The notes beneath the pieces are model-generated. The model was not told the origin of the DNA and ran no database searches. It was given only the letters and a program-made list of their open reading frames with translations. A DNA stretch of 39,644 nt from a virus. Positions 6,531 to 31,109 of the stretch are shown in pieces (position 1 is the first letter of the stretch; each line of letters begins with the position of its first letter). The stretch lies in IMG/VR virus record IMGVR_UViG_3300024520_007517; one strand, written 5' to 3'. A program made the position numbers and the translations under genes.

Positions 6531-6743
6531 CCCGAGAACGATGGAGAGGCCGATACCGCCCTCTCCACGTGACCAATTCCGGGACACGACGACCAGCTCC
6601 GGGACGTGGCCCTTGTGGCTCAGATCCACCCCGTCCCAGAAGGGGGGATAGATGATGTCTCCCACCATGGGAGCGACGGGAAACTCCAGAGAGAGTCCCT
6701 CGCCGAGCCTGTCGGTGTTGATCCAGACGTCGACCTGAATCAT
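6519..6743 (-). CDS. hypothetical protein (74 aa)
   Basis: track ORF; ATGA overlap with upstream gene. Confidence 0.55.
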   Translation of the reverse strand: MIQVDVWINTDRLGEGLSLEFPVAPMVGDIIYPPFWDGVDLSHKGHVPELVVVSRNWSRGEGGIGLSIVLGEDN

Positions 6744-7201
6744 CACTCCCCCTCGCTGATGTCGACGCCGATGAGCGCGAAGGTGTCCCGGGCCACCAGC
6801 TCGTTGTACCGGGCCGACGCCTCTGGGAAGGCCCAGGCCACAGCCGCCTGGATGACGACGTGTCCGAGACCCCAGAGGGACATCATCAGGATGGCCATGA
6901 GCCAGCCGTCAACCTGCGCCAGGGCGAAGAGCGGGGCCACGAGCACTCCGGTGCCGCCGAGGATCCCGAGCTTGCCGTTCTTGAAGACCTTGGCGGCGAG
7001 CATCATCATCACGGGGATCGTGTAGCTCCACACGAGCACGGTGGCGTGGGCGAGGATGGGGTCGACCCCGTAGAGGCCGACGAGCAGGAGGACGCCGATG
7101 GCCATGTCCCAGAGGGAGATGCCGAGGCCCGCGCCCTTGCGGGTGGACTCCATGGCTGCGAATCCGGCGATGAGAGAGATCAGGTAGACGGTGATGATCA
7201 T
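6743..7201 (-). CDS. integral membrane protein (152 aa, multi-TM)
   Basis: track ORF; AGGAGAA SD; operator IR plus GGCATAAG leader upstream. Confidence 0.7.
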   Translation of the reverse strand: MIITVYLISLIAGFAAMESTRKGAGLGISLWDMAIGVLLLVGLYGVDPILAHATVLVWSYTIPVMMMLAAKVFKNGKLGILGGTGVLVAPLFALAQVDGWLMAILMMSLWGLGHVVIQAAVAWAFPEASARYNELVARDTFALIGVDISEGE

Positions 7202-7233
7202 GAGAAATTCTCCTAGGTTGGTGGTCTATTCTC

Positions 7234-7241
7234 CTTATGCC
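7234..7241 (-). promoter_or_regulatory. GGCATAAG variant motif, 35 nt upstream of CDS 6743..7201, operator IR immediately upstream
   Basis: motif core on minus strand. Confidence 0.5.
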
Positions 7242-7245
7242 GCCC

Positions 7246-7267
7246 TAACAACTGTGAGTTGCTAAAC
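7246..7267. promoter_or_regulatory. operator-like IR AACAAC-N5-GTTGCTAAAC abutting promoter motif of CDS 6743..7201
   Basis: taacaactgtgagttgctaaac. Confidence 0.5.
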
Positions 7268-7336
7268 AACCATGGGAGCGGGGCTCGAACCCGCGACCTC
7301 CTCTTGCGAGGCGCTCTACCAACTGAGCTATCCCTG
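7266..7336 (-). tRNA. tRNA-like element or degenerate tRNA (pseudo-tRNA or attP-type remnant)
   Basis: minus-strand read TCAGGGA-TA-GCTCAGTTGGTAGAGC...GCGGGTTCGAGCCCCGC-TCCCATG: canonical D-arm and T-arm, but anticodon region is too short (18 nt) and acceptor stem pairs only 4 of 7; a promoter/operator cassette sits directly upstream. Confidence 0.4.
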
Positions 7337-7344
7337 ACACTTCT

Positions 7345-7352
7345 CTTATGCC
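7345..7352 (-). promoter_or_regulatory. GGCATAAGAGAAGTG motif directly upstream of tRNA-like element, operator IR immediately upstream
   Basis: motif core on minus strand. Confidence 0.5.
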
Positions 7353-7355
7353 CCG

Positions 7356-7377
7356 TAGCAACCGTGAGTTGCCTAAG
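7356..7377. promoter_or_regulatory. operator-like IR GCAAC-N5-GTTGCCTAAG abutting promoter motif of tRNA-like element
   Basis: tagcaaccgtgagttgcctaag. Confidence 0.5.
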
Positions 7378-7382
7378 CAAGC

Positions 7383-7404
7383 GTCGCCCCCAGAAGGGGG
7401 ACGG
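7383..7404 (-). terminator. GC hairpin after CDS 7429..8604
   Basis: gtcgccccc-agaa-gggggacgg. Confidence 0.5.
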
Positions 7405-7428
7405 CGCGTTGCTCACGACCGAGTTGGA

Positions 7429-8604
7429 CTACAGGACGCCGAGGAGCTCCAGGAGCTCCATGGTCTCGGGACTGTGCGCGACCTTGATTCCCTTCGACAG
7501 ACCAGCCTTGACTCCTCGTTGGAACTCGTCGCCCTCGATGTGCCCGGCGCCGTTGCTCGACGCCTGCTCCAACCGCTTCACCTCCGCGTTCAAGCGCTGC
7601 ACCTCGGCGCTCAGCGCCATCTCGTCCGATGTCCGAGAGGTCTTCAGACGCTCGTTCTCCGACTTCAGACCCCGGCAGCTCTCATCCCGAGCCGCGATGT
7701 CTGCTCGCTGCACGCGCACCGCCCTCCGGTGCTCCGTGATCTCCTCCCGCAGGGAGAGGATGCTCACGTCGCGCTCCTGGAGCTGCTTCCTCAGGCCCTC
7801 GACCACCGTCAGGTGGCCCGCCAACGGCGACTCCGAGGTCTGCAGGGCTTCGAGCTGCTTCCGCAGGTCGTAGACCTCCTCCTCGGCAGCCCGACCGCTC
7901 TCCAGCAGCTGGTCCCGTCCGGCGTTGGCCAGACGGGCGGCCTCCTTGTGGGCGGCGATCTCCTTCTGCATGTTGGCGGCCTTGGCCTCGGCCTCCTCCT
8001 CCAAGGCACGGGAGTAGTCCCGAGCGTCTGCCAGCTCCTTCTGCGCCGTCTTCACCTTGCCCTGCAGCTCGGTGATCTCCTCGGTGAAGACGAGGGTGTC
8101 CGCCTCTTCCTTCTCTCGGGCGATGACCTGCTCGGTCTCTCGGTGGCGCCGGTGAGCAGCTGCGACGGCCTTGCCACTGACGGGCAGGCCGTCGGGGCTG
8201 GGAGACAGCGCGATGGCGATCTGGTCGTAGGTCTTGCCGGCAGCACGCATCGAGATGATCTTCTGGATGCGATCGGGCCCCCACTGGGTGCTCTGTCGCC
8301 TCGGGATGTTGCCGATGCCGGCCTCGGACAAGGCCTTCCTCGTCGCCGTCATGCTCTTGCTGACGTAGACGAGCGGGAGGCTCTTCTTCTTGGCCGTGCG
8401 CTCGGCCAGGTTCTTGAGAGGCGTGTTGGCCACGTCCCACATGAAGAGGATGACGTCGGCGCCCTTGGTCGACGTCGTCTTCGGGGAGCGCCGCCCCATA
8501 GACGTGACGTTGTGGGTGATGTCGACTCCGAGCCCTTTGAGCTTGGCGACGTACGAGCTGTTGTTGCGGGGGAAGCCGCCGATCAAAACTGCAGTAGTAC
8601 CCAT
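7429..8604 (-). CDS. hypothetical protein (391 aa): N-terminal alpha/beta domain, HTH-like segment (GKTYDQIAIAL), long C-terminal coiled coil
   Basis: internal ATG (MGTTAVLIGG...) of track ORF 7429..8898 with AGGAGAAA SD; operator-like IR (GCAATAACCGGTTGTCA) plus GGGATAAG leader upstream. Confidence 0.65.
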   Translation of the reverse strand: MGTTAVLIGGFPRNNSSYVAKLKGLGVDITHNVTSMGRRSPKTTSTKGADVILFMWDVANTPLKNLAERTAKKKSLPLVYVSKSMTATRKALSEAGIGNIPRRQSTQWGPDRIQKIISMRAAGKTYDQIAIALSPSPDGLPVSGKAVAAAHRRHRETEQVIAREKEEADTLVFTEEITELQGKVKTAQKELADARDYSRALEEEAEAKAANMQKEIAAHKEAARLANAGRDQLLESGRAAEEEVYDLRKQLEALQTSESPLAGHLTVVEGLRKQLQERDVSILSLREEITEHRRAVRVQRADIAARDESCRGLKSENERLKTSRTSDEMALSAEVQRLNAEVKRLEQASSNGAGHIEGDEFQRGVKAGLSKGIKVAHSPETMELLELLGVL

Positions 8605-10173: not shown

Positions 10174-10214
10174 CTCAAGGATCTTGAGTTGTGCAGAGCT
10201 AAGTTGAAAGACTC

Positions 10215-10255
10215 GCTGTCGGCGGGTGCTCGAGCCGAACGACCCCGCCGACAGC
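10215..10255 (-). terminator. 12-bp perfect stem hairpin
   Basis: gctgtcggcggg-N16-cccgccgacagc. Confidence 0.55.
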
Positions 10256-10280
10256 AGAGTCCTGGTTTGTTTGCACTCCC

Positions 10281-10288
10281 CTTATCCC
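10281..10288 (-). promoter_or_regulatory. orphan GGGATAAGGGGAGTGCAAACAAACCAGGAC leader with no ORF, running into hairpin 10215..10255
   Basis: motif core on minus strand between two terminators. Confidence 0.4.
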
Positions 10289-10321
10289 TCGCCCGCCCCG
10301 GAACTTCCGGGGCGGGCGAGG
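10287..10321. terminator. 35-nt perfect palindrome hairpin after CDS 10331..10450
   Basis: cctcgcccgccccggaa/cttccggggcgggcgagg. Confidence 0.6.
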
Positions 10322-21208: not shown

Positions 21209-21395
21209 CCGACGCGGGGAGCAAGACCCCTACAGGGCGCGGGGGCGCAAGGACCCCATCGACTTCCGTCCCTTCGGATCGGCGCCCTTCGAGGATGAGG
21301 AAGAGGGGGAGGTCTTCATCGAGGAGGCCACACGAGTACTGATCGGGGAGGCCATGGCCTGCCTCATGCCGAAGAAGAGGAAACGCCTGAAATGA
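21192..21395 (+). CDS. small acidic protein with basic C-terminus (67 aa)
   Basis: track ORF; high GC3. Confidence 0.5.
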   Translation: MPRRADRRGEQDPYRARGRKDPIDFRPFGSAPFEDEEEGEVFIEEATRVLIGEAMACLMPKKRKRLK

Positions 21396-22207
21396 GCCTG
21401 CCCATCCGAGTTCACCGAGTCCCTGTCCACGAAGTGGTCCTCTCCATCTACCCCACGGGGAAGTCCCGACTGGAGCTGACTCCGCTGTGCAAGACCTCCG
21501 GAGGCAAGGTCACTCCCTGGCTGGCCGAGGCGCTCTACCAGCTCCACTGCCGAGTCCAGGATGCCGGAGGAGACTTCCGGGTCACGGGGGCCTACCGCAG
21601 CTACGCGATGCAGGCCGCGGCTCGGGAGAAGTACGAGAGGTGGGTCGCGGCCGGCAATCCGAAGCGGAGCGACCCTGCCTGGAACGAGAAGACGATGAAG
21701 GCCGCCTTCGTGGCCAAGCCGGGCTCGTCCCTGCACAACGCGGCGTCGGCTACCGACCTGGACTACATGCGGGCGGCGCCGGCGGCCGTGGCGAAGGACA
21801 AGAAGCTAGACTGGCTCTGGGAGCAGATGGAGGGACTGGGCTTCACAGCCATCATCAGCGAGCCCGACGAGAAGGCCAGCGAGTCCTGGCACTTCAACTG
21901 CTACGGCCCCTGGGCCCATGTGGCCGAGAAGTACGGCCAGACCCACGTTGCCATGTGCATCATCCTGGACATCGGCGAGGGCGACTGGACCTGGAAGCAC
22001 TGGGTGCAGGCGCAGATCCACCGTCTCGGCGCCGACATCGGCAAGGTCGACGGCGTCTGGGGCAAGAAGACCCGCGCCGGCGCTTCGGTGCTGGGCGTGC
22101 TGCTCGGCGATGAAGAGTCGGTGTCGGCCGCCTTCTGCGCCATGTCGGTGAACCCGGGACGCTACCTCTGGGAGATCCAGAGCGACGGCAGCGCGGTGGT
22201 GACCTGA
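21392..22207 (+). CDS. endolysin: peptidase M15 (VanY/L-Ala-D-Glu peptidase-like) plus C-terminal PG_binding_1 domain (271 aa)
   Basis: track ORF; motifs TGAYRSYAMQ, SSLHNAASATDLD, ESWHF match the M15 Zn-ligand pattern; C-terminal GKVDGVWGKKTRAGASVLGVLLG matches peptidoglycan-binding repeat. Confidence 0.65.
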   Translation: MSLPIRVHRVPVHEVVLSIYPTGKSRLELTPLCKTSGGKVTPWLAEALYQLHCRVQDAGGDFRVTGAYRSYAMQAAAREKYERWVAAGNPKRSDPAWNEKTMKAAFVAKPGSSLHNAASATDLDYMRAAPAAVAKDKKLDWLWEQMEGLGFTAIISEPDEKASESWHFNCYGPWAHVAEKYGQTHVAMCIILDIGEGDWTWKHWVQAQIHRLGADIGKVDGVWGKKTRAGASVLGVLLGDEESVSAAFCAMSVNPGRYLWEIQSDGSAVVT

Positions 22208-22593
22208 TGAGAACCATTCTGTGGACAGGTGCCCGGCTGCAGCCGGTTGGGCACCGAGAGAAGCGGCCCCGGGTCCGCCGACGGCGCCCGCAACCCTTCA
22301 AGAAGGTGTTGCCACTCATCCGAGAGAAGATGCTCGAGCTACGAGAGGCAGGGTACGACTTCATACTCACGGCCGAAGGCGTGGGCAAGGATCTGGGCCT
22401 GGACAGCAGCTCGGTGAAGCGCGCCTTCGGGCAGCTCCGCATCGAGGGAATCATGGGTCCTCCTCAGAACCACGCACCGGGCAACACCTGGCGCGGAGGG
22501 GGCTATGACGAGTACTCCGGGTGGCACCCCACGACATGGCGCCTGCGACTCAAGACTGAGGAGCTGGCGGAGGAAGACAAGGAGTCCGCATGA
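22207..22593 (+). CDS. hypothetical protein, possible winged-helix (128 aa)
   Basis: track ORF; TGATG overlap. Confidence 0.5.
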   Translation: MRTILWTGARLQPVGHREKRPRVRRRRPQPFKKVLPLIREKMLELREAGYDFILTAEGVGKDLGLDSSSVKRAFGQLRIEGIMGPPQNHAPGNTWRGGGYDEYSGWHPTTWRLRLKTEELAEEDKESA

Positions 22594-22844
22594 GCAACTT
22601 GATCAGTTTGAAGAATGCCGTCAGCGGCGCCCTCACCCGGCTCGGCAACCGCCGGCTGCGCGGAGAGGTCCTGCGTCTCCGGCCCGAGTGGTACGAGATC
22701 GCGGAAGAGGCCATCATCGAAGAGCAGGGGACCGCCCCCATCCTGGCCTTCCTGGGGCTGAACCTGGAGCAGGGTGACGAGAACATCGTCGTCACCAGCG
22801 GCATGTTCGGGTCCCAGTCGGAGTTCCTGGAGTTCTCGGAATGA
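22590..22844 (+). CDS. hypothetical protein (84 aa)
   Basis: track ORF; ATGA overlap. Confidence 0.5.
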   Translation: MSNLISLKNAVSGALTRLGNRRLRGEVLRLRPEWYEIAEEAIIEEQGTAPILAFLGLNLEQGDENIVVTSGMFGSQSEFLEFSE

Positions 22845-23131
22845 CCGACAAGCACTTCCACTTCCACATCCACGAGGATGACGTGAAGGAGCCGGCTGCG
22901 GGTGCCCCAGCTGCACCTCTCCAAGCGACCGTCACCAACATCCCCATGCACGGAGGCGTGGTGACGGTGGGACTGCCTCTGGCCGTCAGTACCGAGACAC
23001 AGCTGATGCGGCTGACCCATCAGCTGCTCTACGCATTCGCCTCCCTTCAAGACCCCCGGGTCAACGCGGCCCTCAAGGCCGTGGGCTGCACCGTCAAAGA
23101 CAACAACGGCAAAGACCTGATCCCCGTATAG
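22841..23131 (+). CDS. hypothetical protein (96 aa)
   Basis: track ORF; ATGA overlap. Confidence 0.5.
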   Translation: MTDKHFHFHIHEDDVKEPAAGAPAAPLQATVTNIPMHGGVVTVGLPLAVSTETQLMRLTHQLLYAFASLQDPRVNAALKAVGCTVKDNNGKDLIPV

Positions 23132-23140
23132 GAGCCAGAG

Positions 23141-23704
23141 ATGACCGCACTACCCAAGCTCGAAGGCAACTACGAGCCCCTCAAGATCTACCTTGAAGAG
23201 TCGACGACGTGGACGGCCCCGGAGCGCAACTCCGTCCTGCGGGCGATCAAGCAGTGGAACTGGGCCGACCCGGAGAGGGCACAGTATCTGCCGCCTCTGA
23301 TGGAGATCGCCGAGTTCCAGAGGCAGAGCGACGTGACGGTCAACTGGGTGGAGGAGGTCGACGCCCTCCTCCTGGTCGTAGGACACCCCGTGATCCTCAA
23401 GGACAGCGCCTTCGGGTGCTGCGTCACCGATACCGAGACAGGGCAGGTGGACATCTACCTTGACCGCAACATGCACAGGCAGCTTGGGCCGGGATGGCGC
23501 GTGCCGGTGGCTCTGCACGAGCTGGGGCATGCCGGAGGGCTGCGCCACTCCGACGCCACGGTGCCCTCCGGCATCATGCAGCCGGGACTGGTGAACCTCG
23601 ACGAGGGTCACGGCTTCCGCATGGTCACTCAGCTCGAGCGAGAACGCCTACGAGAACTCCGAGTCGACAGCGTCGTCGGCGTAGACAGCCTGGAAGGCAA
23701 CTGA
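23141..23704 (+). CDS. metzincin-type zinc metalloprotease (187 aa)
   Basis: track ORF; AGGAGCC SD; exact HExxHxxGxxH motif (HELGHAGGLRH). Confidence 0.55.
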   Translation: MTALPKLEGNYEPLKIYLEESTTWTAPERNSVLRAIKQWNWADPERAQYLPPLMEIAEFQRQSDVTVNWVEEVDALLLVVGHPVILKDSAFGCCVTDTETGQVDIYLDRNMHRQLGPGWRVPVALHELGHAGGLRHSDATVPSGIMQPGLVNLDEGHGFRMVTQLERERLRELRVDSVVGVDSLEGN

Positions 23705-23705
23705 C

Positions 23706-24185
23706 ATGAACTTCTTCTCCTCCCCTTTCGAGGCCCTCCTCATCGCCGTCAAGCCCCGCAAGCAGGGGCCCGATGACGACCGCGTCCTCGTCGTCGACCT
23801 GGTCATGGACATTCTGGTACCCGACATCTCGATGGCCTACCAGCTCGATGACAGTGCCGGCGACTTGCTCTTCGGGCCGACGGCCGGGCTGCTGAAGCAG
23901 GCTGCCGTGCTGACCGGCCGGCAGCAGTGCGGCACCTTCGACCTATCGGTCGGCTTCGCCCCCATCCTCAACGAGCAGGATGAGAACGTGAGCCTCTTCT
24001 TCGACTCGACCAAGGTCAAGATCACCCACCTGAAGCCGGACGCGGAGGAGACCTCCATGGTTCGCTCAGTGATGACGGTGTCCCCCGACGATCACCGCGC
24101 CGTGCAGCTGATGATGGAGCGCATCGAAGACGCCATCTGGTGCGTTGGCACCGAGTCCATCATGGAGAAGGAAGAGGCGGCCTGA
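23706..24185 (+). CDS. hypothetical protein (159 aa)
   Basis: track ORF; start 2 nt after previous stop. Confidence 0.55.
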   Translation: MNFFSSPFEALLIAVKPRKQGPDDDRVLVVDLVMDILVPDISMAYQLDDSAGDLLFGPTAGLLKQAAVLTGRQQCGTFDLSVGFAPILNEQDENVSLFFDSTKVKITHLKPDAEETSMVRSVMTVSPDDHRAVQLMMERIEDAIWCVGTESIMEKEEAA

Positions 24186-24544
24186 TGCACTGCTTCTTCC
24201 TCAACCAGAAGGCAGCCAACGAGGCTGCTGCGACGAAGCTCGTCGCCGAAGGCCATGACGAGGGCGAGGCGTTGGAGGCCGTGCGGGAACTGGCCCTGCC
24301 TCCCATCCTCGAGGTGCAGTGGATGTGGTTCCCGAACTTCATCGCCACCGACACGCCGATGCAGAATCGCCTCTACAAGGCCTGGTCCTCTCGCTGGGCA
24401 GGCCAGGAGGTGGTCGATGGTCAGCTTGAGTGCGCCGACGAGATGCACGAGTGGATCTTGGACTGGGTGACGGTCCAATACCCCTTCGTCGAGGGTCTGA
24501 AGGGCTACCTGAAGGGCATCGAACAAGTCCGCCAGGCTGCGTAG
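24185..24544 (+). CDS. hypothetical protein (119 aa)
   Basis: internal ATG (MHCFFLNQKA...) of track ORF 24140..24544; TGATG overlap. Confidence 0.5.
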   Translation: MHCFFLNQKAANEAAATKLVAEGHDEGEALEAVRELALPPILEVQWMWFPNFIATDTPMQNRLYKAWSSRWAGQEVVDGQLECADEMHEWILDWVTVQYPFVEGLKGYLKGIEQVRQAA

Positions 24545-24612
24545 TGGCGCTAGCCCCTCCCATCCGGCGGCCCCGGACTTTCTCGGGGCCGAAGGTACGC
24601 TCCCGGAAGCTC

Positions 24613-26823
24613 GTGTCCGTCTTGATGGCGGCTTACCAGGCGCAGGAGTGGGTGGTGGCCGCGGCAGCGTCAGTTCTCGACCAGGCACTTCCCGCAGGAT
24701 GGGACTTGGAGCTTCTGGTGTGCGTTGACGGCTGCACCGCCACGCTGAAGGCGGTGCAGGGTCTTCACGACCCAAGGGTGGGAGTGGCGGCACTGGACAA
24801 GAACTACGGCACCTACATCGCCACCAACACCATCCTGGGCATGTCCCGGGGCGAGCTGGTGACCTGCATGGGGGCCGACGACATCATGCTGCCGACCCGG
24901 CTCCTCAAGCTGGTCGGTGCGATGGAGAGGCACCCAGAGGTGGGCCTGGCCGGAGCGTGGTACACCCGAACAGACGAAGATCTGAACTTCCTAGAGCATC
25001 GGAACACCTGCGGCGACGGCACCTGGGTACATCGCAGAAGCATCCTGGTGGGGAAGCTCGGGGGCTTCATGCCGTGGACGTGCGGAGCCGACTCAGAGGT
25101 GGTGGTGCGGACCTCCTACCTGGGGGCCAAGAGGCATCAAGTGCGAGAGCATCTGTACCTGCACCGCCAACACCCGAAGCAGCTCACCGCGGACCCGAAA
25201 ACCGCCGCGGGGTCCAAAGTACGGGAGGGCTACGTCGAGATCATCGAACGCGCCAGGACCCGCTATAAGGGAGGGGCGAGGCCCCAGCGCATCGTTCCCG
25301 TAAAGGGGAAGGTGGCGTCCTTGGGAGGCTTCTTGCGGAAGACCAAGGAGGCGCCTCCGAAGGCCGAGCTGAAAGAGGTGTCGATGGCCTCTATCCCTGC
25401 CCGAAGAAAGACCCTGAAGGAAGCGGTGGAAAGCCTCCTCCCCCAAGTGGATCGGGTCAACGTCTACCTCAACGAGTACCGGGACGTGCCGAGCTTCCTG
25501 AATCACCCCAAGATCCGGGTCGCCCGCAGCCAGAAGCACGGGAACCGGGGAGACGCGGGGAAGTTCTTTTGGTCGGGGAGGGGCCGGGGGTACCACCTGA
25601 CCGCCGACGACGACATTATCTACCCAAAGGGGTACGTCACCCGCCTGGTAAATGCCATTGACCACTACGGCCGCAGGGCCGTCTTGAGCTTCCATGGCAC
25701 TGTGCTGAGACCGGGAGCGAAGGTCTACTACAAGGACCGGGTGACCACTTTCCGCTGCTTGGATGGGGTAGACGGCAACCACCCGGTGCATGTCGCGGGC
25801 ACGGGAGTCATGGGGTACCACTCTGACGCCTTGAAGGTGACCCCCGAGGACTTCAAGCACCCCAACATGGCGGATGTGTGGATGGGGCTTCTGTGCCAGA
25901 AGGCGCGGGTGCCCTGCGTCGTCCTCCAGCACAAGGGCGGGTGGCTCAAAAGCCATTGGATCCCGGACACCATCTTTCGGAAGTCCGCGGACCACCTGGA
26001 TGGGTCCTTCATGGACTCATCCGTTCAACAGAACCGAGCCATCCAGTCGGTCTCATGGGATCTGCTTCCCGCCCCCGCCTTCCGGATAGGGGTGGTGATG
26101 CCCATTTGGCGGCGCGAGCCAGTGGCTCGCGCCGCGCTCAGGCACCTACACCGGCTTCGAGTGGCCCTTCAGAAGGAGGGGGTCAGCCTTCGGGTGGTGA
26201 TCGTGGGCTCCGAGAAAGAGGTCTCCGCCTCCTTGGTGAGGGAGGCGGGGCGAGGGGAGTTCCGCTATGTGGAGTGGCCGAACTCCCCGCTGGGGAGCAA
26301 GTTCCAGGCCGGAGTGGATGCCGTCCGAAAGTGGGGAGTGGATGCAGCGGTCATCAACGGGTCTGACGACTTTCTCTCCCTCTCCGTCTTCAAGCACTAC
26401 GTCGCAAGGCACTACGACGGGGCGCCGTTGATGGGCGTGAAGGATGCGACCCTACTGGATACGGCCTCCGGCAAAGCCGCGTACTGGGCGGGGTACACGA
26501 GGAATCGAGCCAGGATCGGAGAGCCGGCCGGCACAGGCCGATTCTATTCGGCGCGGACGCTGGACTCTCTGGGGTGGGAGCTGTACCCCACGCACCTATC
26601 GATGGGCCTCGACGCCGCGTGCATGAAGCGGTTGGGGGCGAGAAAGTTCGAGCTGGTGGGGCAACCCACCGCCCACCTCGTGGCCCTCAAGACTGCGGAC
26701 GCGCTCAACGCCTTCCCCGGAGGAGGAGCCGTGGTTTCCTCTGAGGGGGCGCTCACCAACCTGTTCCCCGGGACTCAGGAAGATATTCGGCGATTGTTGG
26801 GGGGCCCTCGTGCAGGTGCATGA
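24613..26823 (+). CDS. multidomain glycosyltransferase (~736 aa): N-terminal GT2 (GT-A) domain plus two further GT-A-like domains
   Basis: track ORF 24430..26823, start placed at GTG 24613 (alternatives TTG 24622, ATG 24625) after stop of previous gene; KLVSVLMAAYQ...LLVCVDGC...CMGADDIM is the GT2 signature with DxD; second DDD motif (LTADDDIIY) and third Rossmann-like region (IGVVMPIW...VVIVGSEKE...INGSDDF). Confidence 0.65.
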   Translation: MSVLMAAYQAQEWVVAAAASVLDQALPAGWDLELLVCVDGCTATLKAVQGLHDPRVGVAALDKNYGTYIATNTILGMSRGELVTCMGADDIMLPTRLLKLVGAMERHPEVGLAGAWYTRTDEDLNFLEHRNTCGDGTWVHRRSILVGKLGGFMPWTCGADSEVVVRTSYLGAKRHQVREHLYLHRQHPKQLTADPKTAAGSKVREGYVEIIERARTRYKGGARPQRIVPVKGKVASLGGFLRKTKEAPPKAELKEVSMASIPARRKTLKEAVESLLPQVDRVNVYLNEYRDVPSFLNHPKIRVARSQKHGNRGDAGKFFWSGRGRGYHLTADDDIIYPKGYVTRLVNAIDHYGRRAVLSFHGTVLRPGAKVYYKDRVTTFRCLDGVDGNHPVHVAGTGVMGYHSDALKVTPEDFKHPNMADVWMGLLCQKARVPCVVLQHKGGWLKSHWIPDTIFRKSADHLDGSFMDSSVQQNRAIQSVSWDLLPAPAFRIGVVMPIWRREPVARAALRHLHRLRVALQKEGVSLRVVIVGSEKEVSASLVREAGRGEFRYVEWPNSPLGSKFQAGVDAVRKWGVDAAVINGSDDFLSLSVFKHYVARHYDGAPLMGVKDATLLDTASGKAAYWAGYTRNRARIGEPAGTGRFYSARTLDSLGWELYPTHLSMGLDAACMKRLGARKFELVGQPTAHLVALKTADALNAFPGGGAVVSSEGALTNLFPGTQEDIRRLLGGPRAGA

Positions 26824-27718
26824 GCTGCTACGCGTCCTGCACGAGCGGGGCCTTCTACTCCAGGTGCTGGGGACCACGGAGGGGGCGGCCCTACGCCCCC
26901 ACTCCTTGACCTCCGCCGGTCCAGGGTCGGTCTGCTTCTCCCAGTCCCCCACTCCGGAGATCTTTGAGCAGGCCGCGCAAAGGGGTACGGCTCTGCTCTT
27001 ATCGGCCCCCTTCGAGTTCCCGTGGAGGGAGGACATGCCGATCGCGGTCTGCGATCGGGTTCGGTTGGCCTTTGCCGTCGTGACGGGATTGTTTGAGCCG
27101 CCCCCTGTACCGGGCGTACACCCGACCGCGGTGGTGGATGGCTACGTTGACCCCTCGTCGACGGTGGGGGCTATGTGCTACGTCGGGCCGGGATGCTCGG
27201 TGGGCGCGGGGTCGGTGCTTCATCCGGGGGTGGTCCTGGTGCGGAACGTCCGGGTCGGAGAGCGCTGTATCGTGCACTCAGGGGCCGTCCTGGGGGCAGA
27301 CGGTTTCGGCTATGCCCGCGATCAGGACGGTCGACTGGAGAAGATCCGGCACTTTGGGGGAGTCGTTCTAGAGGACCACGTCGACATTGGCCCGAACTCC
27401 AACGTGAACGCGGGCACCCTCGACCCGACTCGGCTCTGCTTCGGAGCGAAAGTAGACGCCCTCTGCCACATCGGGCACAACGCCCAGATAGGCCGGCACG
27501 CTGCCCTCGCTGCCGGGACCATTCTGGGGAGGTCGGCCCTCGGTGAGGCGTCCTGGACCGGGCTGAACAGCACCATCCTGCCGGGGAATGACGTGGGGGA
27601 CCGGGGGACGGTGGCTGCTCACGCTCTGGTGACCCGGGAGGTTCCTCCAGATACTACGGCGGTGGGAGTTCCCGCCCGGGCCATTTCTCGAGTACGCAAG
27701 CCCGGGGACATGTGGTGA
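26810..27718 (+). CDS. LpxD-like left-handed beta-helix (hexapeptide-repeat) sugar N-acyltransferase (302 aa)
   Basis: track ORF; GTG start overlapping previous gene; LpxD-type N-terminal region, then hexapeptide repeats VHPTAVVDGYVDPSSTVGAMCYVGPGCSVGAGSVLHPGVVLVRNVRVGERCIVHSGAVLG. Confidence 0.65.
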   Translation: MQVHELLRVLHERGLLLQVLGTTEGAALRPHSLTSAGPGSVCFSQSPTPEIFEQAAQRGTALLLSAPFEFPWREDMPIAVCDRVRLAFAVVTGLFEPPPVPGVHPTAVVDGYVDPSSTVGAMCYVGPGCSVGAGSVLHPGVVLVRNVRVGERCIVHSGAVLGADGFGYARDQDGRLEKIRHFGGVVLEDHVDIGPNSNVNAGTLDPTRLCFGAKVDALCHIGHNAQIGRHAALAAGTILGRSALGEASWTGLNSTILPGNDVGDRGTVAAHALVTREVPPDTTAVGVPARAISRVRKPGDMW

Positions 27719-28341
27719 TCCCCCTCCGTGGAACAGTTCTGGCCCTCGGTCCACACCCCGACGATGTGGAGCTGGGGTGTGGAGGCCTGCTGGCGCGTCT
27801 CAAGGGCTGCAAGAAGCACATCCGCGTCTTCTCGGACTGCGAGAAGTCCATCCCAGAGGGGTTCACCACCGAGGACCTCATCGCGGAGTGCCATGAGGCT
27901 GCCGCACTGCTGGGGGCATCCTGCGAGGTCCTCGACTTCCCCGTACGGGACTTCCCGGCGCAGAGGCAGGAGATCCTGGAGGCGCTCGTAGGACTGAACA
28001 AGGAGCTGCGCCCAGACGTGGTGCTGGTCCCCTCGTCTACCGACATACACCAGGACCACCGGGTGATCTTCGAGGAAGCCGTTCGGGCCTTCCGAACATG
28101 CACCGTTCTTGGGTACGAGGTCTCTTGGAGCAATAAGGCCCACCGGCCGTCCTTGTTCGTTGCTCTAGGGCGGGAGGACGTAGAAGTGAAACTTTCTGCC
28201 CTCAGGTGCTACCAAACTCAGGCGATAGGCAGGAGCTACTTCAAGGACGACGAGATGTTTGTGGCCCCTCTGAGGGTCAGAGGATTACAGATCAGGCAGC
28301 TTTACGCGGAGGCGTTTGAGGTCTTGCTGGGGGTCATCTGA
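27712..28341 (+). CDS. PIG-L/LmbE family N-acetylglucosaminyl deacetylase (209 aa)
   Basis: track ORF; signature LALGPHPDDVELGCGG (AHPDDE-type zinc-binding motif), HQDH. Confidence 0.65.
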   Translation: MVIPLRGTVLALGPHPDDVELGCGGLLARLKGCKKHIRVFSDCEKSIPEGFTTEDLIAECHEAAALLGASCEVLDFPVRDFPAQRQEILEALVGLNKELRPDVVLVPSSTDIHQDHRVIFEEAVRAFRTCTVLGYEVSWSNKAHRPSLFVALGREDVEVKLSALRCYQTQAIGRSYFKDDEMFVAPLRVRGLQIRQLYAEAFEVLLGVI

Positions 28342-28920
28342 ATGTACGACGAGGCACTTTATTGGGATTCGCGGTATCTCGCGGGAGGGAACAGCGGCTC
28401 CGGCTCTCGAGGGAAGGAGGGGGACTGGAAGGCCCGCTTCGTGATCGAGGAGGCGAAGAGAGCCAAGCCGCAGACAGTCTTGGACCTTGGCAGCGGGGAC
28501 GGCGTAGTAGGCGCTCAGATCATGCGCTCTCTGCCGAGCTCCCTCTACCTCGGGGTGGACATCTCTTCCGCCGCCGTAGAGTCCTCCTGCCGGCAGAGGA
28601 CCCCCAACATGCAGTTCCTCGTCGAGGATCTTGTATCTTCCCGGCACACGGCGGACCTGGTCCTTTGCCTCGATGTCCTGTTCCACCTGCCCACAGAGCA
28701 GCGGCAGCGAGAGGCTCTTGAGGCGATAGGTAGATCCTTCGAGAAGTCGGCGGTTGTCGCCGCGTGGAACAGCGGAGTGCTGTCCCTGGGGGAGCTCGCG
28801 CCACACTGCTTCTTCTTCCCCTTCGTGCCCCCACCGGGCACCGTGATCTACAAGCAGGAGACGCTGCCCATGAACCCCGTGAAGACTATGTACGTCCTGC
28901 ACAGGTCGGAGGTGGGATGA
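28342..28920 (+). CDS. class I SAM-dependent methyltransferase (192 aa)
   Basis: track ORF; motif I VLDLGSGDG, post-I acidic residue, DLVLCLDVLFHL. Confidence 0.6.
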   Translation: MYDEALYWDSRYLAGGNSGSGSRGKEGDWKARFVIEEAKRAKPQTVLDLGSGDGVVGAQIMRSLPSSLYLGVDISSAAVESSCRQRTPNMQFLVEDLVSSRHTADLVLCLDVLFHLPTEQRQREALEAIGRSFEKSAVVAAWNSGVLSLGELAPHCFFFPFVPPPGTVIYKQETLPMNPVKTMYVLHRSEVG

Positions 28921-29417
28921 CGTACTGGAACAAGAGGAAGCAGCATGTCTACTACCGCGAGGTCTTAGCGGTAGCTCGGAGGACCGCCCCCAAAGCGACC
29001 AGCCTCCTTGATGTGGGGACAGGCCCTTGCGAGTACCCAGCGTGGTTCGATTGGATCCCGCGGAAGGTGCTGGTGGACAAGGGCAACACCCCTCCTGTGC
29101 CCGGGGCCGAGTGCATTCGGGCCGACTTCATGACCTACCAGACGGCCGAGCGCTTTGACCTCGTCACCTGCCTGCAGGTCCTGGAGCATCTGCAAGATCC
29201 AGCAGCCATGGCGCGGCGCTTGCTCGCCCACGGCAAGAAGGTGATCGTGTCGGTGCCGTACATGTGGCCGGAGAACTTCTGCAAGTACCATGTGCAGGAC
29301 CCAGTCAGCACCAAGAAGCTGCTCTCCTGGTTCCCGGTCAAGCCCATCGAGACCCTGAAGGTGACCGAGCCCGGGAACATCTCCAGGATGATCGCCGTGT
29401 TCCCTGGGAGAGCATGA
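28917..29417 (+). CDS. class I SAM-dependent methyltransferase (166 aa)
   Basis: internal ATG (MTYWNKRKQH...) of track ORF 28764..29417; ATGA overlap; LLDVGTGPCEY and FDLVTCLQVLEHLQDP. Confidence 0.55.
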   Translation: MTYWNKRKQHVYYREVLAVARRTAPKATSLLDVGTGPCEYPAWFDWIPRKVLVDKGNTPPVPGAECIRADFMTYQTAERFDLVTCLQVLEHLQDPAAMARRLLAHGKKVIVSVPYMWPENFCKYHVQDPVSTKKLLSWFPVKPIETLKVTEPGNISRMIAVFPGRA

Positions 29418-30145
29418 GCCTCCGCCGCAGCCATCTCACCTTCTCTGTCGGCCTGTCCGTCAAGGGCCGGGAGTCCCAGCGCCTGGATAGGTGTCTGGAG
29501 AGCCTGGAGCAGCAGACGCTGCGCCCTGTGCAGATCGTCGTGGTGGAGATGGCCGAGAAGGGCCTCTTCAAGCACCGAGCCACCTGCGTGCGCTTCGGGG
29601 TGCGTCACCTGCAGGTGGAGGATGACGAGGGCCTCTTCCCGCTGGCCAGGCTGGCCAACATCGCAGGCCGTCAGCTCATGGGCTCGGCCACCCACTTCGT
29701 CAAGACGGACATGGACGCCGTCTTCCACCCCGAGCTGCTGCGGCAGCTGGCGCTTCGCGTGGATGAGGACCCTCGAGGCCTGGTGAGCGTGCGCCCCCGC
29801 CGGCTGCTCAAGAAGTACTCGTATCCTGGAGGCCCCGAGCGATGGTGCCGCGACGCACAGCTGGTGAAGGGGGACGAGAAGATGTGGGGCCTGTGCATGG
29901 CTCACGACTTCGACTCCTTCGGTGAGCTCCGCGGATTCGACGAGGCCTTCGTGGGCTGGGGAGGGGAGGACCGCAACTACGTCTACCGGGCGGAGCAAGC
30001 AGGGCGGACAGCGAGGATGCTGGACATGGGCCCTCTGCTGGCCCACCAGTGGCACTCCGTCGAGAAGGGCTCCCGGGTGAACGCCTGCAAGAACAAGGAG
30101 TGGCGGAAGAGGGCCCAGAGGAATGGGACGGGGTGGGGCCGGTGA
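29414..30145 (+). CDS. family 2 glycosyltransferase (243 aa)
   Basis: internal ATG (MSLRRSHLTFSVGLSV...) of track ORF 29264..30145; ATGA overlap; GT2 N-terminal beta-strand, DMDAVF (DxD), GFDEAFVGWGGEDRNYVYR (GT2 C-terminal GEDxD motif). Confidence 0.65.
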   Translation: MSLRRSHLTFSVGLSVKGRESQRLDRCLESLEQQTLRPVQIVVVEMAEKGLFKHRATCVRFGVRHLQVEDDEGLFPLARLANIAGRQLMGSATHFVKTDMDAVFHPELLRQLALRVDEDPRGLVSVRPRRLLKKYSYPGGPERWCRDAQLVKGDEKMWGLCMAHDFDSFGELRGFDEAFVGWGGEDRNYVYRAEQAGRTARMLDMGPLLAHQWHSVEKGSRVNACKNKEWRKRAQRNGTGWGR

Positions 30146-30963
30146 ACCTGCTCCGCAAAGGGCGGGTCGACGACGAGGCCGCCGTGCCCAGCTACAAGGA
30201 GCCGAAGGACACTAGGCCGTTCCAGGTGAGCGCCGTCATACCCATCAAGGACCGTCCCTCCAAGCACCTGGCCGCTTCCGTCCGCTTCCTGCTTGCACAG
30301 TCCCTCCCGGTGCACGAGATCATCGTGGTGGATCAGGCCAGCAAGCCGGAGCTGCGGAGAGAGTACGCATCGATCTTGAAGGCACCCAAGACGAAGCACC
30401 TGATCCGAGACACGCCCGACCAGTGGAATAAGCCTATGGCGGCCAACGCCGGCATCCGGGCCACCAGCCCAGAGAGCACCCACATACTCAACCTCGACTG
30501 CGACATGCTCTTCGGCCCCAATGCCCTGGACACTCTTAGGTCGCTAGCCGACAAGTACGGCGGGGAGGTTCTGGTGTACGGTCACCGGCATGATCTGCTC
30601 GACGCCAGCACGCTGCTGTCTCGGCGCCCCAGGTGGAGGACTCTGCTAAGAAACCTGCGCCTCACAGATCGGGTCGCCAACCCCTGGCACTTTGTACCGA
30701 GAGATTGGATCCACCGGGTGCGTGGGTACGACGAGAGGATGTGGGGCCGCGGCGCCATGGATAACGACATGACCTCTCGGGCTGAGAGGGATCCATCCAT
30801 CGCGGTAGCTCAAGTCAATGAGAAACAGCCGTTGGCCATCCACTACAACCACTCCAGGCCGCCTTGGCCAGAGACCCATAAGAGGCCGGAGACCGCCCTG
30901 AATTGCCACCTGAGGAACACAGATCTCTCTATCGTGAGGAACGACGAGAACTGGGGAGCCTGA
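30142..30963 (+). CDS. family 2 glycosyltransferase (273 aa)
   Basis: track ORF 30049..30963; GTG start overlapping previous stop (GTGA); VSAVIPIKDRPS...IIVVDQAS...LNLDCDMLF. Confidence 0.55.
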   Translation: MNLLRKGRVDDEAAVPSYKEPKDTRPFQVSAVIPIKDRPSKHLAASVRFLLAQSLPVHEIIVVDQASKPELRREYASILKAPKTKHLIRDTPDQWNKPMAANAGIRATSPESTHILNLDCDMLFGPNALDTLRSLADKYGGEVLVYGHRHDLLDASTLLSRRPRWRTLLRNLRLTDRVANPWHFVPRDWIHRVRGYDERMWGRGAMDNDMTSRAERDPSIAVAQVNEKQPLAIHYNHSRPPWPETHKRPETALNCHLRNTDLSIVRNDENWGA

Positions 30964-31109
30964 CATGGGATGCAACTGCCGCAAGCAAGCCAAACCGCAG
31001 AGAGCTACCCGGCCCGTGCGTACTCGTGTAGTGTACGCACAACGTGGAGTACAAGTCCGCAAGCCACGCGAGAGCAGCGAGCAGGTGGACAAGAAGGTGA
31101 GGAGGATCG

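What the first reader, a model, noticed from the sequence alone, without database searches (positions are those of the whole stretch)
7225..7420. Degenerate tRNA-like element embedded in its own operator/promoter/terminator cassette
Minus strand 7336..7266 has a textbook D-arm (TAGCTCAGTTGGTAGAGC) and T-arm (GCGGGTTCGAGCCCCGC). The anticodon-arm region is too short and the acceptor stem pairs at only 4 of 7 positions. So it is not a canonical tRNA. It is flanked upstream by an operator IR plus GGCATAAGAGAAGTG motif, and another operator/promoter cassette follows. It could be a pseudo-tRNA, a tRNA-derived regulatory RNA (a vault-RNA-like partner for the MVP homologue is worth considering), or an attP core remnant.
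Basis: partly seen in the sequence, partly recalled or inferred. Interest (0 to 1): 0.55.

Follow-up and report, generated by a model that had tools for sequence, protein, structure and literature searches.

The report
Anticodon-less tRNA-like small RNA gene
A novel phage-like genome carries a small gene with its own promoter for an RNA that keeps the body of a tRNA but has a 4-base-pair capped stub instead of an anticodon loop; a distant relative keeps the same arrangement, so it is probably a working tRNA mimic rather than a dead tRNA gene, though its job is unknown.

Summary
Minus strand about 7338..7269 matches the Rfam tRNA model (40.7 bits; threshold 29). D arm, variable loop and T arm are perfect. 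The anticodon arm is a 12-nt stub, CCUC-GCAA-GAGG. ARAGORN calls nothing.

The acceptor has 4 contiguous pairs, or 7-8 pairs with one bulged A.

The "GGCATAAGAGAAGTG" motif is one of 18 strand-specific promoter-like sites (G[GC]ATAAG: 18 on minus, 0 on plus). The other 17 precede ribosome-binding sites or, once, a short hairpin unit. This one precedes the tRNA-like sequence, and a second promoter follows for the next gene.

One relative was found, a 1.5-kb metagenome contig (L131). It has the same order: terminator, promoter, tRNA-like element, promoter. It keeps the same 13-nt stub length, the shared CUCGCAA and two compensatory acceptor pairs. Its flanking genes are otherwise unrelated.

No integrase, host tRNA match, Ro60 gene, or vault RNA or Y RNA model hit was found. 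Relatives of the major vault protein (MVP) gene in huge phages have no tRNA-like neighbour.

Best reading: a separately transcribed, non-decoding tRNA-mimic small RNA with an unknown partner. It is a new variant of a known kind, and only two members support it.

The parts
7381..7407 (-). GC-rich terminator-like hairpin (GCGCCGUCCCCC-UUCU-GGGGGCGACGC) after the stop codon (7431..7429) of the upstream 391-aa DUF2325/coiled-coil gene. It is followed by UUGCUUAGG.
   Evidence: Sequence and fold of the promoter-upstream regions. Similar hairpins followed by a YTTAG motif precede many other promoters in the window.
7338..7376 (-). Promoter-like cassette P1. It holds CTTAGG, the inverted repeat GCAACTCACGGTTGC (7372..7358; -35-like region or operator) and the core GGGGCATAAGAGAAGTG (7354..7338). 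The predicted transcription start is near G7338 (inferred).
   Evidence: 18 G[GC]ATAAG sites, all on the minus strand. The same motif occurs 3 times in the relative L131 and in large IMG/VR contigs. No sigma-70 consensus promoter is found. The start site is inferred from the usual 7-nt spacing after the -10-like hexamer.
7269..7338 (-). tRNA-like RNA. Acceptor-like helix: 7338..7331 paired with 7277..7269, A7273 bulged. U8/A9: 7330..7329. D arm: 7328..7313. G26: 7312. Anticodon stub CCUC-GCAA-GAGG: 7311..7300. Variable loop AGGUC: 7299..7295. T arm: 7294..7278. No CCA is encoded.
   Evidence: Rfam tRNA 40.7 bits over 7334..7274. ARAGORN finds nothing. The cloverleaf energy is -24.1 kcal/mol against an MFE of -26.5. 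The homologue in L131 760..825 scores 35.8 bits. Alignments A3 and A4.
7300..7311 (-). Anticodon-arm replacement: a 4-bp stem capped by the GNRA tetraloop GCAA. It has no anticodon, no U33 and no R37.
   Evidence: CM alignment. No single 5-nt deletion from a canonical arm can give this sequence. L131 keeps the 13-nt length and the heptamer CUCGCAA, with the 3' strand shifted by one position (CUCG-CAA-CGAG).
7225..7268 (-). Promoter-like cassette P2 for the downstream gene. It holds GTTTAGC (7267..7261), the inverted repeat GCAACTCACAGTTGT (7262..7248) and the core GGCATAAGG (7241..7233). The leader ATAGACCACCAACC follows.
   Evidence: The leader is nearly identical to the one after the promoter at 13369. 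L131 has an equivalent second promoter right after its tRNA-like element.
6743..7213 (-). Ribosome-binding site AGGAGA (7213..7208) and the 152-aa multi-pass membrane protein gene (ATG at 7201). This is the first gene downstream of P2. It is not part of the RNA but bounds the cassette.
   Evidence: The protein has no Pfam or PHROG family and no homologue other than itself in 5.8 billion proteins.

Best explanation
The element is a stand-alone gene for a small (about 70-nt) RNA that mimics a tRNA but cannot decode.

Proposed mechanism:
- Transcription starts from a dedicated copy of the element's own promoter type, at or within a few bases of the first acceptor nucleotide (G7338, inferred).
- The RNA folds into a tRNA-like L shape with an intact D-loop/T-loop elbow, variable loop and T arm.
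- The anticodon arm has been remodelled into a 4-bp stem closed by a stable GCAA tetraloop, so the RNA cannot read codons.
- The acceptor helix is 7-8 bp with one bulge. Its 5' strand overlaps the conserved start region of the promoter.

Likely function (inferred): it acts in trans through the tRNA elbow and the acceptor/T-arm minihelix. It would serve as a decoy, competitor or handle for a host or phage factor that recognises tRNA shape. Candidates are RNase P, CCA-adding or modification enzymes, or a tRNA-directed toxin or defence nuclease.

Shown here: tRNA descent, loss of the anticodon loop, promoter context, and retention in a second, diverged genome.

Inferred only: transcription start, 3' end, trans action and the identity of the partner.
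For: 1. tRNA descent with an intact core. Rfam tRNA scores 40.7 bits. All D/T-loop and variable-loop consensus positions are present (U8, A14, G15/C48, G18G19, A21, GTTCGA, C61).

2. Non-decoding. The 12-nt stub replaces the 17-nt arm and ARAGORN calls nothing. The alternative minimum-energy fold with a 7-nt loop cannot form in L131 (sequence).

3. The stub is not a simple lesion. No single 5-nt deletion from a canonical arm (5 bp, U33, R37) yields it. It is a C-G-closed GNRA tetraloop.

4. Dedicated promoter. There are 18 G[GC]ATAAG sites, all on the minus strand. Sixteen are followed by a leader, ribosome-binding site and start codon. This one is followed by the tRNA-like sequence 3-6 nt after the conserved GAAGTG. 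An independent promoter (P2) then serves the next gene.

5. Retention in a diverged relative. L131 has the same order: terminator, promoter, tRNA-like, promoter, gene. In blastn between L131 and the window, the only long match is the promoter plus tRNA-like stretch (84% over 76 nt); the one other hit is a weak 56-nt promoter-region match (77%). Only one weak protein link exists (45% over 31 aa) and the flanking genes differ.

6. Structure is kept between the two. Acceptor pairs 7-66 and 6-67 both change on both sides (A-U to G-C, G-C to A-U). The stub keeps 13 nt and 4 bp through a register shift. D and T stems are identical. Both fold as cloverleaves within about 2 kcal/mol of the MFE.

7. 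The same design occurs elsewhere. The arrangement GAGC-N-4bp-GNRA-4bp-AGGUC is found in Ro60-linked Y-RNA-like tRNA mimics. Many other viral contigs carry anticodon-stub tRNA-likes that score 36-56 bits on the tRNA model.
Against: - Only two members are known. Two compensatory pairs in two sequences have no statistical weight (141 of 500 shuffles do as well).
- There are no expression data.
- Folding energies are not better than shuffles (z = -0.85 and +0.17). This is common for tRNAs.
- The acceptor helix is imperfect and bulged at different places in the two members, and no CCA is encoded. Recognition by RNase P, RNase Z or the CCA-adding enzyme is therefore uncertain.
- The 3' end is undefined, because there is no terminator between the element and P2.
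- No partner protein is conserved next to it. The neighbours differ between the window and L131, and a census of neighbours of 35 similar elements found no shared partner relevant here.
- Part of the conservation could reflect promoter overlap and the generic conservation of tRNA arms.
Confidence: 0.55

Rival explanations
1. It is a decaying tRNA pseudogene. A phage tRNA gene lost its anticodon loop and part of its acceptor pairing. It is transcriptionally or functionally inert and persists by chance.
For: ARAGORN makes no call. The anticodon arm is truncated and only 4 acceptor pairs are contiguous. Degenerate tRNA-like sequences are common in viral contigs, some inside tRNA arrays (L028, L091). 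Folding energy is not exceptional.
Against: The truncated state, the CUCGCAA heptamer and the dedicated promoter are all shared with L131. Outside the promoter-like sequences, the rest of L131 is unalignable with the window. The changes between the two keep the helices. The stub needs more than one mutational step and ends in a stable GNRA hairpin. Forty core positions show no lesion.
Confidence: 0.17
2. It is a cis-acting RNA element rather than a trans-acting small RNA. In this view P1 and P2 are tandem promoters for the downstream operon. The tRNA-like fold in the P1 transcript would serve as a processing site (RNase P, Z or E), a 5' stabiliser, or a terminator or insulator between transcription units.
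For: No terminator lies between the element and the downstream gene. The element takes the place that a terminator hairpin occupies in front of other promoters, and it is followed by the same YTTAG motif. In an unrelated low-GC phage family, stub tRNA-likes lie directly upstream of a conserved operon on the same strand.
Against: The downstream genes differ between the window and L131, while the element is conserved. P2 is a complete promoter with its own leader, so the gene does not need P1. A mere hairpin would not need an intact tRNA elbow.
Confidence: 0.15
3. It is a vault-RNA-like or Y-RNA-like partner. The RNA would be the non-coding component of a particle built from the MVP homologue (36734..39391), or it would bind a host Ro60 protein.
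For: An 885-aa protein with MVP shoulder and vault repeat domains is encoded in the same genome. Ro60-linked Y-RNA-like tRNA mimics in metagenomes carry the same 4-bp plus GNRA stub. Published work shows that YrlA RNAs are tRNA mimics lacking an anticodon loop (PMC4201824; 10.1101/312249).
Against: No Vault or YrlA model hit at E<=10. No TROVE/TEP1/Ro60 protein is found (Pfam; tblastn). There is no Ro60-binding helix. The strand order is natural, not permuted. MVP homologues in huge phages have no tRNA-like hit within 17-20 kb.
Confidence: 0.06
4. It is an attP core or a remnant of integration into a host tRNA gene.
For: Many temperate phages integrate into tRNA genes and carry tRNA-derived sequence (general knowledge).
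Against: No integrase or recombinase domain is present in any scanned ORF of 140 aa or more. Both tRNA halves are present and there is an internal remodelling. A dedicated promoter is conserved in L131. The genome-collection scan for a tRNA sharing both halves found only an unrelated CPR tRNA-Ala.
Confidence: 0.03

Closest known systems
YrlA-type bacterial and phage Y RNAs (Rfam RF02553; Chen et al. 2014, PMC4201824; Wang et al. 2018, 10.1101/312249)
   Same: Both are non-coding RNAs with a close tRNA mimic. They keep the D and T arms, the Levitt pair and the elbow, and they have no anticodon loop. The Ro60-linked variants found here (L126-L149) carry the identical GAGC-N-4bp-GNRA-4bp-AGGUC stub.
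   Different: YrlA is circularly permuted, with a closed acceptor hairpin and a Ro60-binding helix, and it lies next to rsr. The window element has natural strand order, an open acceptor helix, no Ro60-binding helix, no Ro60 gene and no YrlA model hit.
Ordinary phage-encoded tRNA genes
   Same: Both are short genes in an intergenic region of a phage-like genome. The tRNA covariance model scores above threshold, and the D arm, variable loop and T arm are canonical.
   Different: There is no anticodon loop, so the RNA cannot decode. The acceptor helix is bulged. The 5' end probably coincides with the transcription start, rather than being made by RNase P.
Bacillus cereus tRNA-Other (pseudo-tRNA with a regulatory role; PMC3399842)
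   Same: Both are tRNA-derived RNAs that do not work in translation yet have, or are proposed to have, a cellular function.
   Different: tRNA-Other is chromosomal. As far as I recall, it keeps an anticodon-like arm. It has no relation in sequence or context to this element.
tmRNA tRNA-like domain, and phage small stable RNAs made with tRNA machinery (T4 species 1/2 RNAs; P1 C4 and P4 CI RNAs). This comparison rests on my own knowledge.
   Same: All are tRNA-like acceptor/T-arm modules without a functional anticodon, used for purposes other than decoding or processed by tRNA enzymes.
   Different: Those RNAs have extra functional domains (mRNA-like or antisense regions). No such domain or target complementarity was found here.
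Eukaryotic vault RNA (RF00006)
   Same: Both are small RNAs with tRNA-like box A and box B sequences, and both co-occur in one genome with an MVP-family protein.
   Different: There is no model match and no TEP1/TROVE protein. In bacteria there is no Pol III reason for box A and box B. There is no linkage between the MVP gene and a tRNA-like element in other phages.

Membership tests
Decoding tRNA (Rfam RF00005) | Covariance-model score at or above the gathering threshold | tested here: met
   40.7 bits against 29; E=2.3e-5 for the window. L131 homologue: 35.8 bits.
Decoding tRNA (Rfam RF00005) | 5-bp anticodon stem with a 7-nt loop carrying U33, an anticodon and R37 | tested here: not met
   The arm is 4 bp plus the GCAA tetraloop, 12 nt instead of 17. 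ARAGORN calls nothing. The alternative 7-nt-loop fold is not conserved in L131.
Decoding tRNA (Rfam RF00005) | Uninterrupted 7-bp acceptor stem with discriminator and CCA end | tested here: not met
   Four contiguous pairs, or 7-8 only with A7273 bulged. No CCA is encoded. L131 has 7 pairs with a bulged C.
Decoding tRNA (Rfam RF00005) | Conserved core nucleotides for the L shape (U8, A14, G15:C48, G18G19, A21, G53-T54-psi55-C56, A58, C61) | tested here: met
   All are present in the sequence 7330..7278. The actual fold was not tested.
YrlA / bacterial Y RNA (RF02553) | Encoded next to a Ro60/Rsr (TROVE) gene | tested here: not met
   No ORF scanned with Pfam matched TROVE. tblastn with a Ro60 protein finds nothing in the window.
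YrlA / bacterial Y RNA (RF02553) | Ro60-binding helix formed by the 5' and 3' ends, and a permuted tRNA-like module with a closed acceptor hairpin | tested here: not met
   The order is natural and the acceptor is open. There is no YrlA hit at E<=10. Compare L128, which scores 20.8 bits and lies upstream of a TROVE gene.
YrlA / bacterial Y RNA (RF02553) | tRNA-like module lacking an anticodon loop | tested here: met
   The same stub design is seen in the Ro60-linked loci.
Vault RNA (RF00006) as MVP partner | Match to the vault RNA model | tested here: not met
   No hit at E<=10 in 7150..7480.
Vault RNA (RF00006) as MVP partner | Co-occurrence with MVP and a TROVE-domain RNA-binding protein (TEP1) | tested here: not met
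   An MVP-like protein is present but no TROVE protein was found. MVP homologues in huge phages have no tRNA-like hit within 17-20 kb.
Vault RNA (RF00006) as MVP partner | Physical association of the RNA with the MVP particle | not testable with these tools
   This needs purification of the particle or a pull-down.
tRNA-gene attP core | Integrase encoded by the element | tested here: not met
   No recombinase family in any scanned ORF.
tRNA-gene attP core | Identity to the 3' part of a host tRNA gene | tested here: inconclusive
   The single genome-collection scan required both halves. It returned only an unrelated CPR tRNA-Ala(GGC).
Neutral tRNA pseudogene | No constraint: relatives lack it or show helix-breaking changes | tested here: not met
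   L131 retains it with its promoter. Two acceptor pairs change on both sides and the stub length is kept. With only two sequences the test is weak.

The most novel reading that the evidence does not exclude
The window and L131 elements may be the first recognised members of a class of phage small RNAs: promoter-driven, natural-order tRNA bodies whose anticodon loop has been replaced by a capped stub. They would act as decoys or sponges for host factors that recognise tRNA shape, for example tRNA-directed defence nucleases or toxins. A less likely alternative is that the RNA is a component of a particle built from the MVP-like protein. Many other anticodon-stub tRNA-likes in viral contigs hint that such RNAs could be widespread and overlooked, because tRNA finders reject them.
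Probability: 0.15. Interest if true: 0.75.

Novelty: new variant of a known kind. Interest (0 to 1): 0.47.

Why it matters
tRNA-shaped RNAs that do not decode are known (Y RNAs, the tmRNA domain, tRNA-Other). A free-standing phage version with its own promoter and a deliberately capped anticodon stub has not, to my knowledge or in the papers searched, been described.

If it is functional, it points to a tRNA-recognising host process that this group of viruses needs to manipulate. tRNA-directed immunity is an obvious candidate.

It also shows that standard tRNA finders discard such genes. ARAGORN rejected or mis-called nearly all of the 20-odd similar viral elements tested, while the Rfam tRNA model scored most of those rescanned above threshold. 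Their true frequency in viral genomes is therefore unknown.

If it turns out to be a relic, the finding is ordinary.

Tried and rejected
Searches for relatives that found nothing:
- Both neighbour proteins and a third protein (152, 391 and 110 aa) have no homologue except themselves in the 5.8-billion-protein database.
- The search for related loci on viral contigs found nothing.
- Exact and consensus DNA patterns found nothing in viral contigs.
- Two other datasets hold the same phage with an identical intergenic region, so they give no variation.

Other searches:
- Phage GenBank search: only generic matches to real tRNA-Cys and tRNA-Gly genes.
- A loose pattern for a promoter followed by a tRNA was swamped by unrelated AT-rich contigs.
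- The host tRNA or attB search in genome contigs returned one unrelated CPR tRNA-Ala.
- Antisense targets of the conserved CUCGCAA stub occur only at chance level.
- Large viral contigs that share the promoter motif have no tRNA-like element in the fetched parts.
- A census of proteins next to 35 other stub elements found no partner relevant to this window. The only recurrent family was DUF6353, in an unrelated low-GC family.
- The fetched 42.4-kb and 36.3-kb stretches around the MVP homologues of huge phages contain no tRNA-like element.
- Literature searches for anticodon-less phage tRNA-likes, the promoter motif and DUF6353 found nothing directly relevant.

Readings rejected:
- The minimum-energy alternative with a 7-nt 'AAG' loop. 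It leaves no position 26 and a 1-nt variable loop, and L131 cannot form it.
- CTTAG as a fixed -35 element. Its spacing to the core varies from 18 to 32 nt.
Full report
**The observation**

On the minus strand the region reads:

- the stop codon of a 391-aa gene (7431..7429);
- a GC-rich hairpin (about 7407..7381);
- TTGCTTAGG;
- the inverted repeat GCAACTCACGGTTGC (7372..7358);
- GGGGCATAAGAGAAGTG (7354..7338);
- a tRNA-like sequence;
- GTTTAGC plus a second inverted repeat, GCAACTCACAGTTGT (7262..7248);
- GGCATAAGG (7241..7233);
- a leader, the ribosome-binding site AGGAGA, and the ATG (7201) of a 152-aa membrane protein.

The Rfam tRNA model matches 7334..7274 with 40.7 bits (gathering score 29; E=2.3e-5 for the 39.6-kb window). 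It covers model positions 4-67. Four nucleotides stand where the model has nine in the anticodon region. A permissive scan of 7150..7480 (E<=10) returns nothing else: no vault RNA, Y RNA or tmRNA.

ARAGORN finds no tRNA in the window. With thresholds lowered to 50-80% it produces only nonsense folds that use the real D arm as an anticodon arm.

D arm (7328..7313), variable loop AGGUC (7299..7295) and T arm (7294..7278) are textbook. The anticodon arm is G26 plus CCUC-GCAA-GAGG (7312..7300). Only four acceptor pairs are contiguous.

One refinement: with A7273 bulged, the acceptor helix extends to 7-8 pairs. That cloverleaf is within 2.4 kcal/mol of the minimum free energy.

**What the flanking motifs are**

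The heptamer G[GC]ATAAG occurs 18 times on the minus strand and never on the plus strand. The longer motif has 9 matches at up to 3 mismatches, against 0.58 expected.

Sixteen of the 18 sites are followed, after a conserved GA(A/G)(G/A)TG(A/T)(A/C)C leader of 25-50 nt, by a Shine-Dalgarno sequence and a start codon of a minus-strand gene. Many are preceded by a GC-rich hairpin and a YTTAG motif. No sigma-70 consensus promoter is present.

I read these sites as the promoters of this element's early, minus-strand transcription units. They would be recognised by an unidentified sigma factor or polymerase. This is an inference from position and repetition.

Two sites are not followed by a gene. 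One is at 7351, followed after 3-6 nt by the tRNA-like sequence. The other is at 10287, followed only by a leader and a strong hairpin.

The inverted repeat CAAC-N5-GTTG lies about 17 nt upstream of the ATAAG core, in a -35-like position. It appears in three adjacent promoters (7351, 7240, 6438) and in looser form in several others. It may be an operator, part of the promoter, or both.

With the usual 7-nt spacing after the -10-like hexamer, the start site would be G7338. That is the first nucleotide of the acceptor helix (inference).

**Is the stub a lesion or a design?**

I enumerated every way of inserting five contiguous nucleotides into CCUCGCAAGAGG. None gives a canonical arm with five pairs, U33 and a purine at position 37. 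The stub therefore needed more than one mutational step. The result is a C-G-closed GNRA tetraloop on a 4-bp helix.

The minimum-energy alternative has a 5-bp stem, a 7-nt loop GCAAGAG, no position 26 and a 1-nt variable loop. It is not a viable tRNA geometry, and the homologue described below cannot form it.

**Relatives**

The genome is an orphan.

- The two neighbouring proteins and a third protein have no homologue but themselves among 5.8 billion proteins.
- The same genome occurs in two other datasets with an identical intergenic region.
- GenBank phages match only through generic similarity to real tRNA-Cys and tRNA-Gly genes.

I ran one metagenome scan for the architecture GGTAGAGC-N5-GNRA-N4-AGGTC-N3-GGTTCGA. 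It returned 25 loci. One of them, L131 (1,497 bp, 68% GC), is a true relative.

- It has three GGGATAAG promoters with the same leader and ribosome-binding-site geometry.
- It has the same cassette: terminator hairpin, GGGGATAAGAGGAGTG, then GUCAGCAG-UA-GCUCAGUGGUAGAGC-CG-CUCG-CAA-CGAG-AGGUC-GCGGGUUCGAGUCCCGC-CUCUGAC, then TTAGCC and a second promoter and gene.
- In blastn between L131 and the window, the only long match is the promoter plus tRNA-like stretch (84% over 76 nt); the one other hit is a weak 56-nt promoter-region match (77%).
- At protein level there is one weak link (45% over 31 aa), to a window gene located elsewhere. The genes flanking the cassette are unrelated.
- The L131 element scores 35.8 bits on the tRNA model.

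Comparing the two elements:

- Acceptor pairs 7-66 and 6-67 both change on both sides (A-U to G-C, G-C to A-U).
- The distance from D stem to variable loop is 13 nt in both.
- The heptamer CUCGCAA is shared, and a 4-bp hairpin is kept by a one-nucleotide shift of the 3' strand.
- Both acceptor helices have 7 or more pairs with one bulge, at different positions.
- Both share the 5' GUGUCAG that overlaps the promoter's start region. In L131 the predicted start is exactly the first paired nucleotide.

These shared derived features argue that the truncated element, together with its promoter, is old and has been retained while the rest diverged beyond recognition.

The caveat is that two sequences give no statistical power. 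In 141 of 500 shuffles the covariation is as high.

attP:
- No integrase or other recombinase family turned up in any ORF scanned with Pfam or PHROGs.
It found only a tRNA-Ala(GGC) of a Candidatus Magasanikbacteria genome, which differs in its acceptor and anticodon arm.
- A dedicated, conserved promoter makes no sense for an attachment site.

Vault RNA:
- The 885-aa protein at 36734..39391 does have MVP shoulder and vault repeat domains. It has 36% identical homologues in 462-735-kb phage genomes.
- There is no Vault model hit and no TROVE or TEP1-like protein.
- The fetched 42.4-kb and 36.3-kb stretches around two of those homologues contain no tRNA or tRNA-like match.
- The idea is unsupported but not excluded.

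**Context from other anticodon-stub tRNA-likes**

A looser scan of viral contigs used the D-arm 3' half, then 10-15 nt, then the variable loop and T arm.

Among these are well over a dozen unrelated sequences whose anticodon arm is a 3-5-bp stem with a 3-6-nt loop. Several have GNRA loops: GAAA in L024, L055 and L092, and GCAA in L114. ARAGORN rejects or mislabels most of them. Of those rescanned with the Rfam tRNA model, most score 36-56 bits.

My pattern required intact D and T arms, so this set cannot show that lesions avoid the core. It does show that such elements are recurrent.

In the metagenome scan, 17 of the 25 loci belong to one family of permuted tRNA-likes with the same GAGC-N-4bp-GNRA-4bp-AGGUC stub. 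They lie about 40-140 nt upstream of a Ro60 (TROVE plus vWA) gene. They are Y-RNA-like tRNA mimics.

Published work shows that YrlA RNAs are close tRNA mimics without an anticodon loop. They are modified by TruB and DusA, and in one case cut by RNase P and given CCA (PMC4201824; 10.1101/312249). This is the nearest known functional analogue.

The window element fails the defining features of that family. It has no Ro60 gene, no Ro60-binding helix, natural strand order and no YrlA hit.

A census of 131 proteins encoded within 2.5 kb of 35 distinct stub elements found no shared partner relevant here.

**Most likely mechanism**

I commit to a separately transcribed, non-decoding tRNA-mimic small RNA (confidence about 0.55).

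- Shown: descent from tRNA, an intact elbow and T arm, replacement of the anticodon loop, promoter context, and retention with structure-preserving changes in a second genome.
- Inferred: start at G7338, a 3' end near the YTTAG that follows, action in trans through the elbow and acceptor/T minihelix, and the nature of the partner.
- My preferred partner class is a host factor that recognises tRNA shape. That includes processing or modification enzymes and tRNA-directed toxins or defence nucleases. No result here distinguishes among them.

Rivals are a neutral pseudogene (0.17), a cis-acting leader, processing or insulator element (0.15), a vault-like or Ro60 partner RNA (0.06) and an attP remnant (0.03).

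**Novelty and verdict**

This is a new variant of a known kind, the tRNA-mimic non-coding RNAs. It is of moderate interest. It would surprise few specialists that a phage carries a degenerate tRNA. The dedicated promoter, the capped stub and the conservation in a distant relative lift it above a relic. tRNA finders reject such genes routinely, so they may be more common than annotation suggests. The evidence rests on two members and no expression data, so I score interest at 0.47.

Noticed in passing
window 36734-39391 (-): An 885-aa protein has major vault protein shoulder (E=4.5e-24) and vault repeat domains. Homologues at 36% identity over 93-94% of its length occur in 462-735-kb uncultured 'huge phage' genomes (LR756500, LR756501, LR756503). 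Its role in a 39.6-kb element is unknown.
   Followed up: partly
window, 18 sites on the minus strand (685, 4080, 4653, 5614, 6438, 7240, 7351, 8641, 9483, 10172, 10287, 10488, 10777, 11915, 13369, 13840, 15481, 34917): A strictly strand-specific promoter-like motif, GG(G/C)ATAAG-N-GA..TG, has a (G/A)CAAC-like element about 17 nt upstream. It does not match the sigma-70 consensus. The same motif is dense in L131 and in large IMG/VR contigs of 164-202 kb (L336, L343, L276/L342) and in L290/L278. This suggests a shared, unidentified transcription specificity.
   Followed up: partly
window 10199-10290 (-): A second promoter has no gene behind it. GGGATAAGG is followed by a 25-nt leader, a strong hairpin (CUGUCGGCGGG...CCCGCCGACAG) and CAACUUAGC, directly before the next promoter (10172). 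It may be another small RNA or an attenuator. A similar promoter-hairpin-TTAGCC unit is seen in L336 near position 259.
   Followed up: no
window, upstream of many promoters (e.g. 7366-7362, 7266-7262, 6456-6452, 9511-9507): A YTTAG(G/C) motif lies between terminator-like hairpins and the promoter core. Its spacing to the core varies from 18 to 32 nt. TTAG occurs 23 times on minus and 9 times on plus. It could be the terminator tail or an upstream promoter element, and this is unresolved.
   Followed up: partly
L126-L128, L130, L132, L136-L138, L140, L141, L143-L149 (e.g. L128 8588-8725): This is a family of permuted tRNA-like RNAs directly upstream of a Ro60 (TROVE plus vWA) gene. They keep a 4-bp, GNRA-capped anticodon stub and a closed acceptor hairpin. 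Their ends appear to leave through the D loop, not through the anticodon stem as in published YrlA. The Rfam YrlA model gives only 20.8 bits (threshold 69), so current models miss them.
   Followed up: partly
L133, L134, L135, L139 (e.g. L133 6340-6480): A second permuted tRNA-like family has the order GGUAGAGC, GCGC-GNGA-GCGC stub, T arm, closed 7-bp acceptor hairpin, UAGCUCAG. In L133 it lies just after an array of 13 tRNA genes, and L135 comes from a 1.18-Mb contig. No Ro60 homologue is found in the fetched DNA and no Rfam family matches.
   Followed up: no
L003, L005, L024, L076, L129 and about 60 near-identical contigs from sample 3300045988: In low-GC phage contigs, a tRNA-like element with a 4-5-bp stem and a 4-6-nt loop (for example CCAC-ACUUCC-GUGG) lies directly upstream, on the same strand, of a small ORF and a DUF6353 (PF19880) gene. 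This linkage is conserved across diverged members. No paper in the library mentions DUF6353.
   Followed up: partly
window 21392-31000 (+): The plus-strand block has a VanY-type peptidase (endolysin-like), three glycosyltransferases, a PIG-L deacetylase, a hexapeptide acyltransferase and a SAM methyltransferase. No terminase, portal, capsid or tail family was detected in any ORF scanned. The virion type of this element is therefore unknown.
   Followed up: partly
L159, L172, L174, L236, L238, L248, L255, L258, L266, L268: In viral contigs of 0.43-0.45 GC, a conserved motif of about 30 nt (CCCCATAGCAAGCATTCGGATAAGTGTAATG and variants) lies immediately upstream of ordinary tRNA genes. It resembles a phage-specific promoter with a GGATAAGTG core similar to the one in the window.
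   Followed up: no
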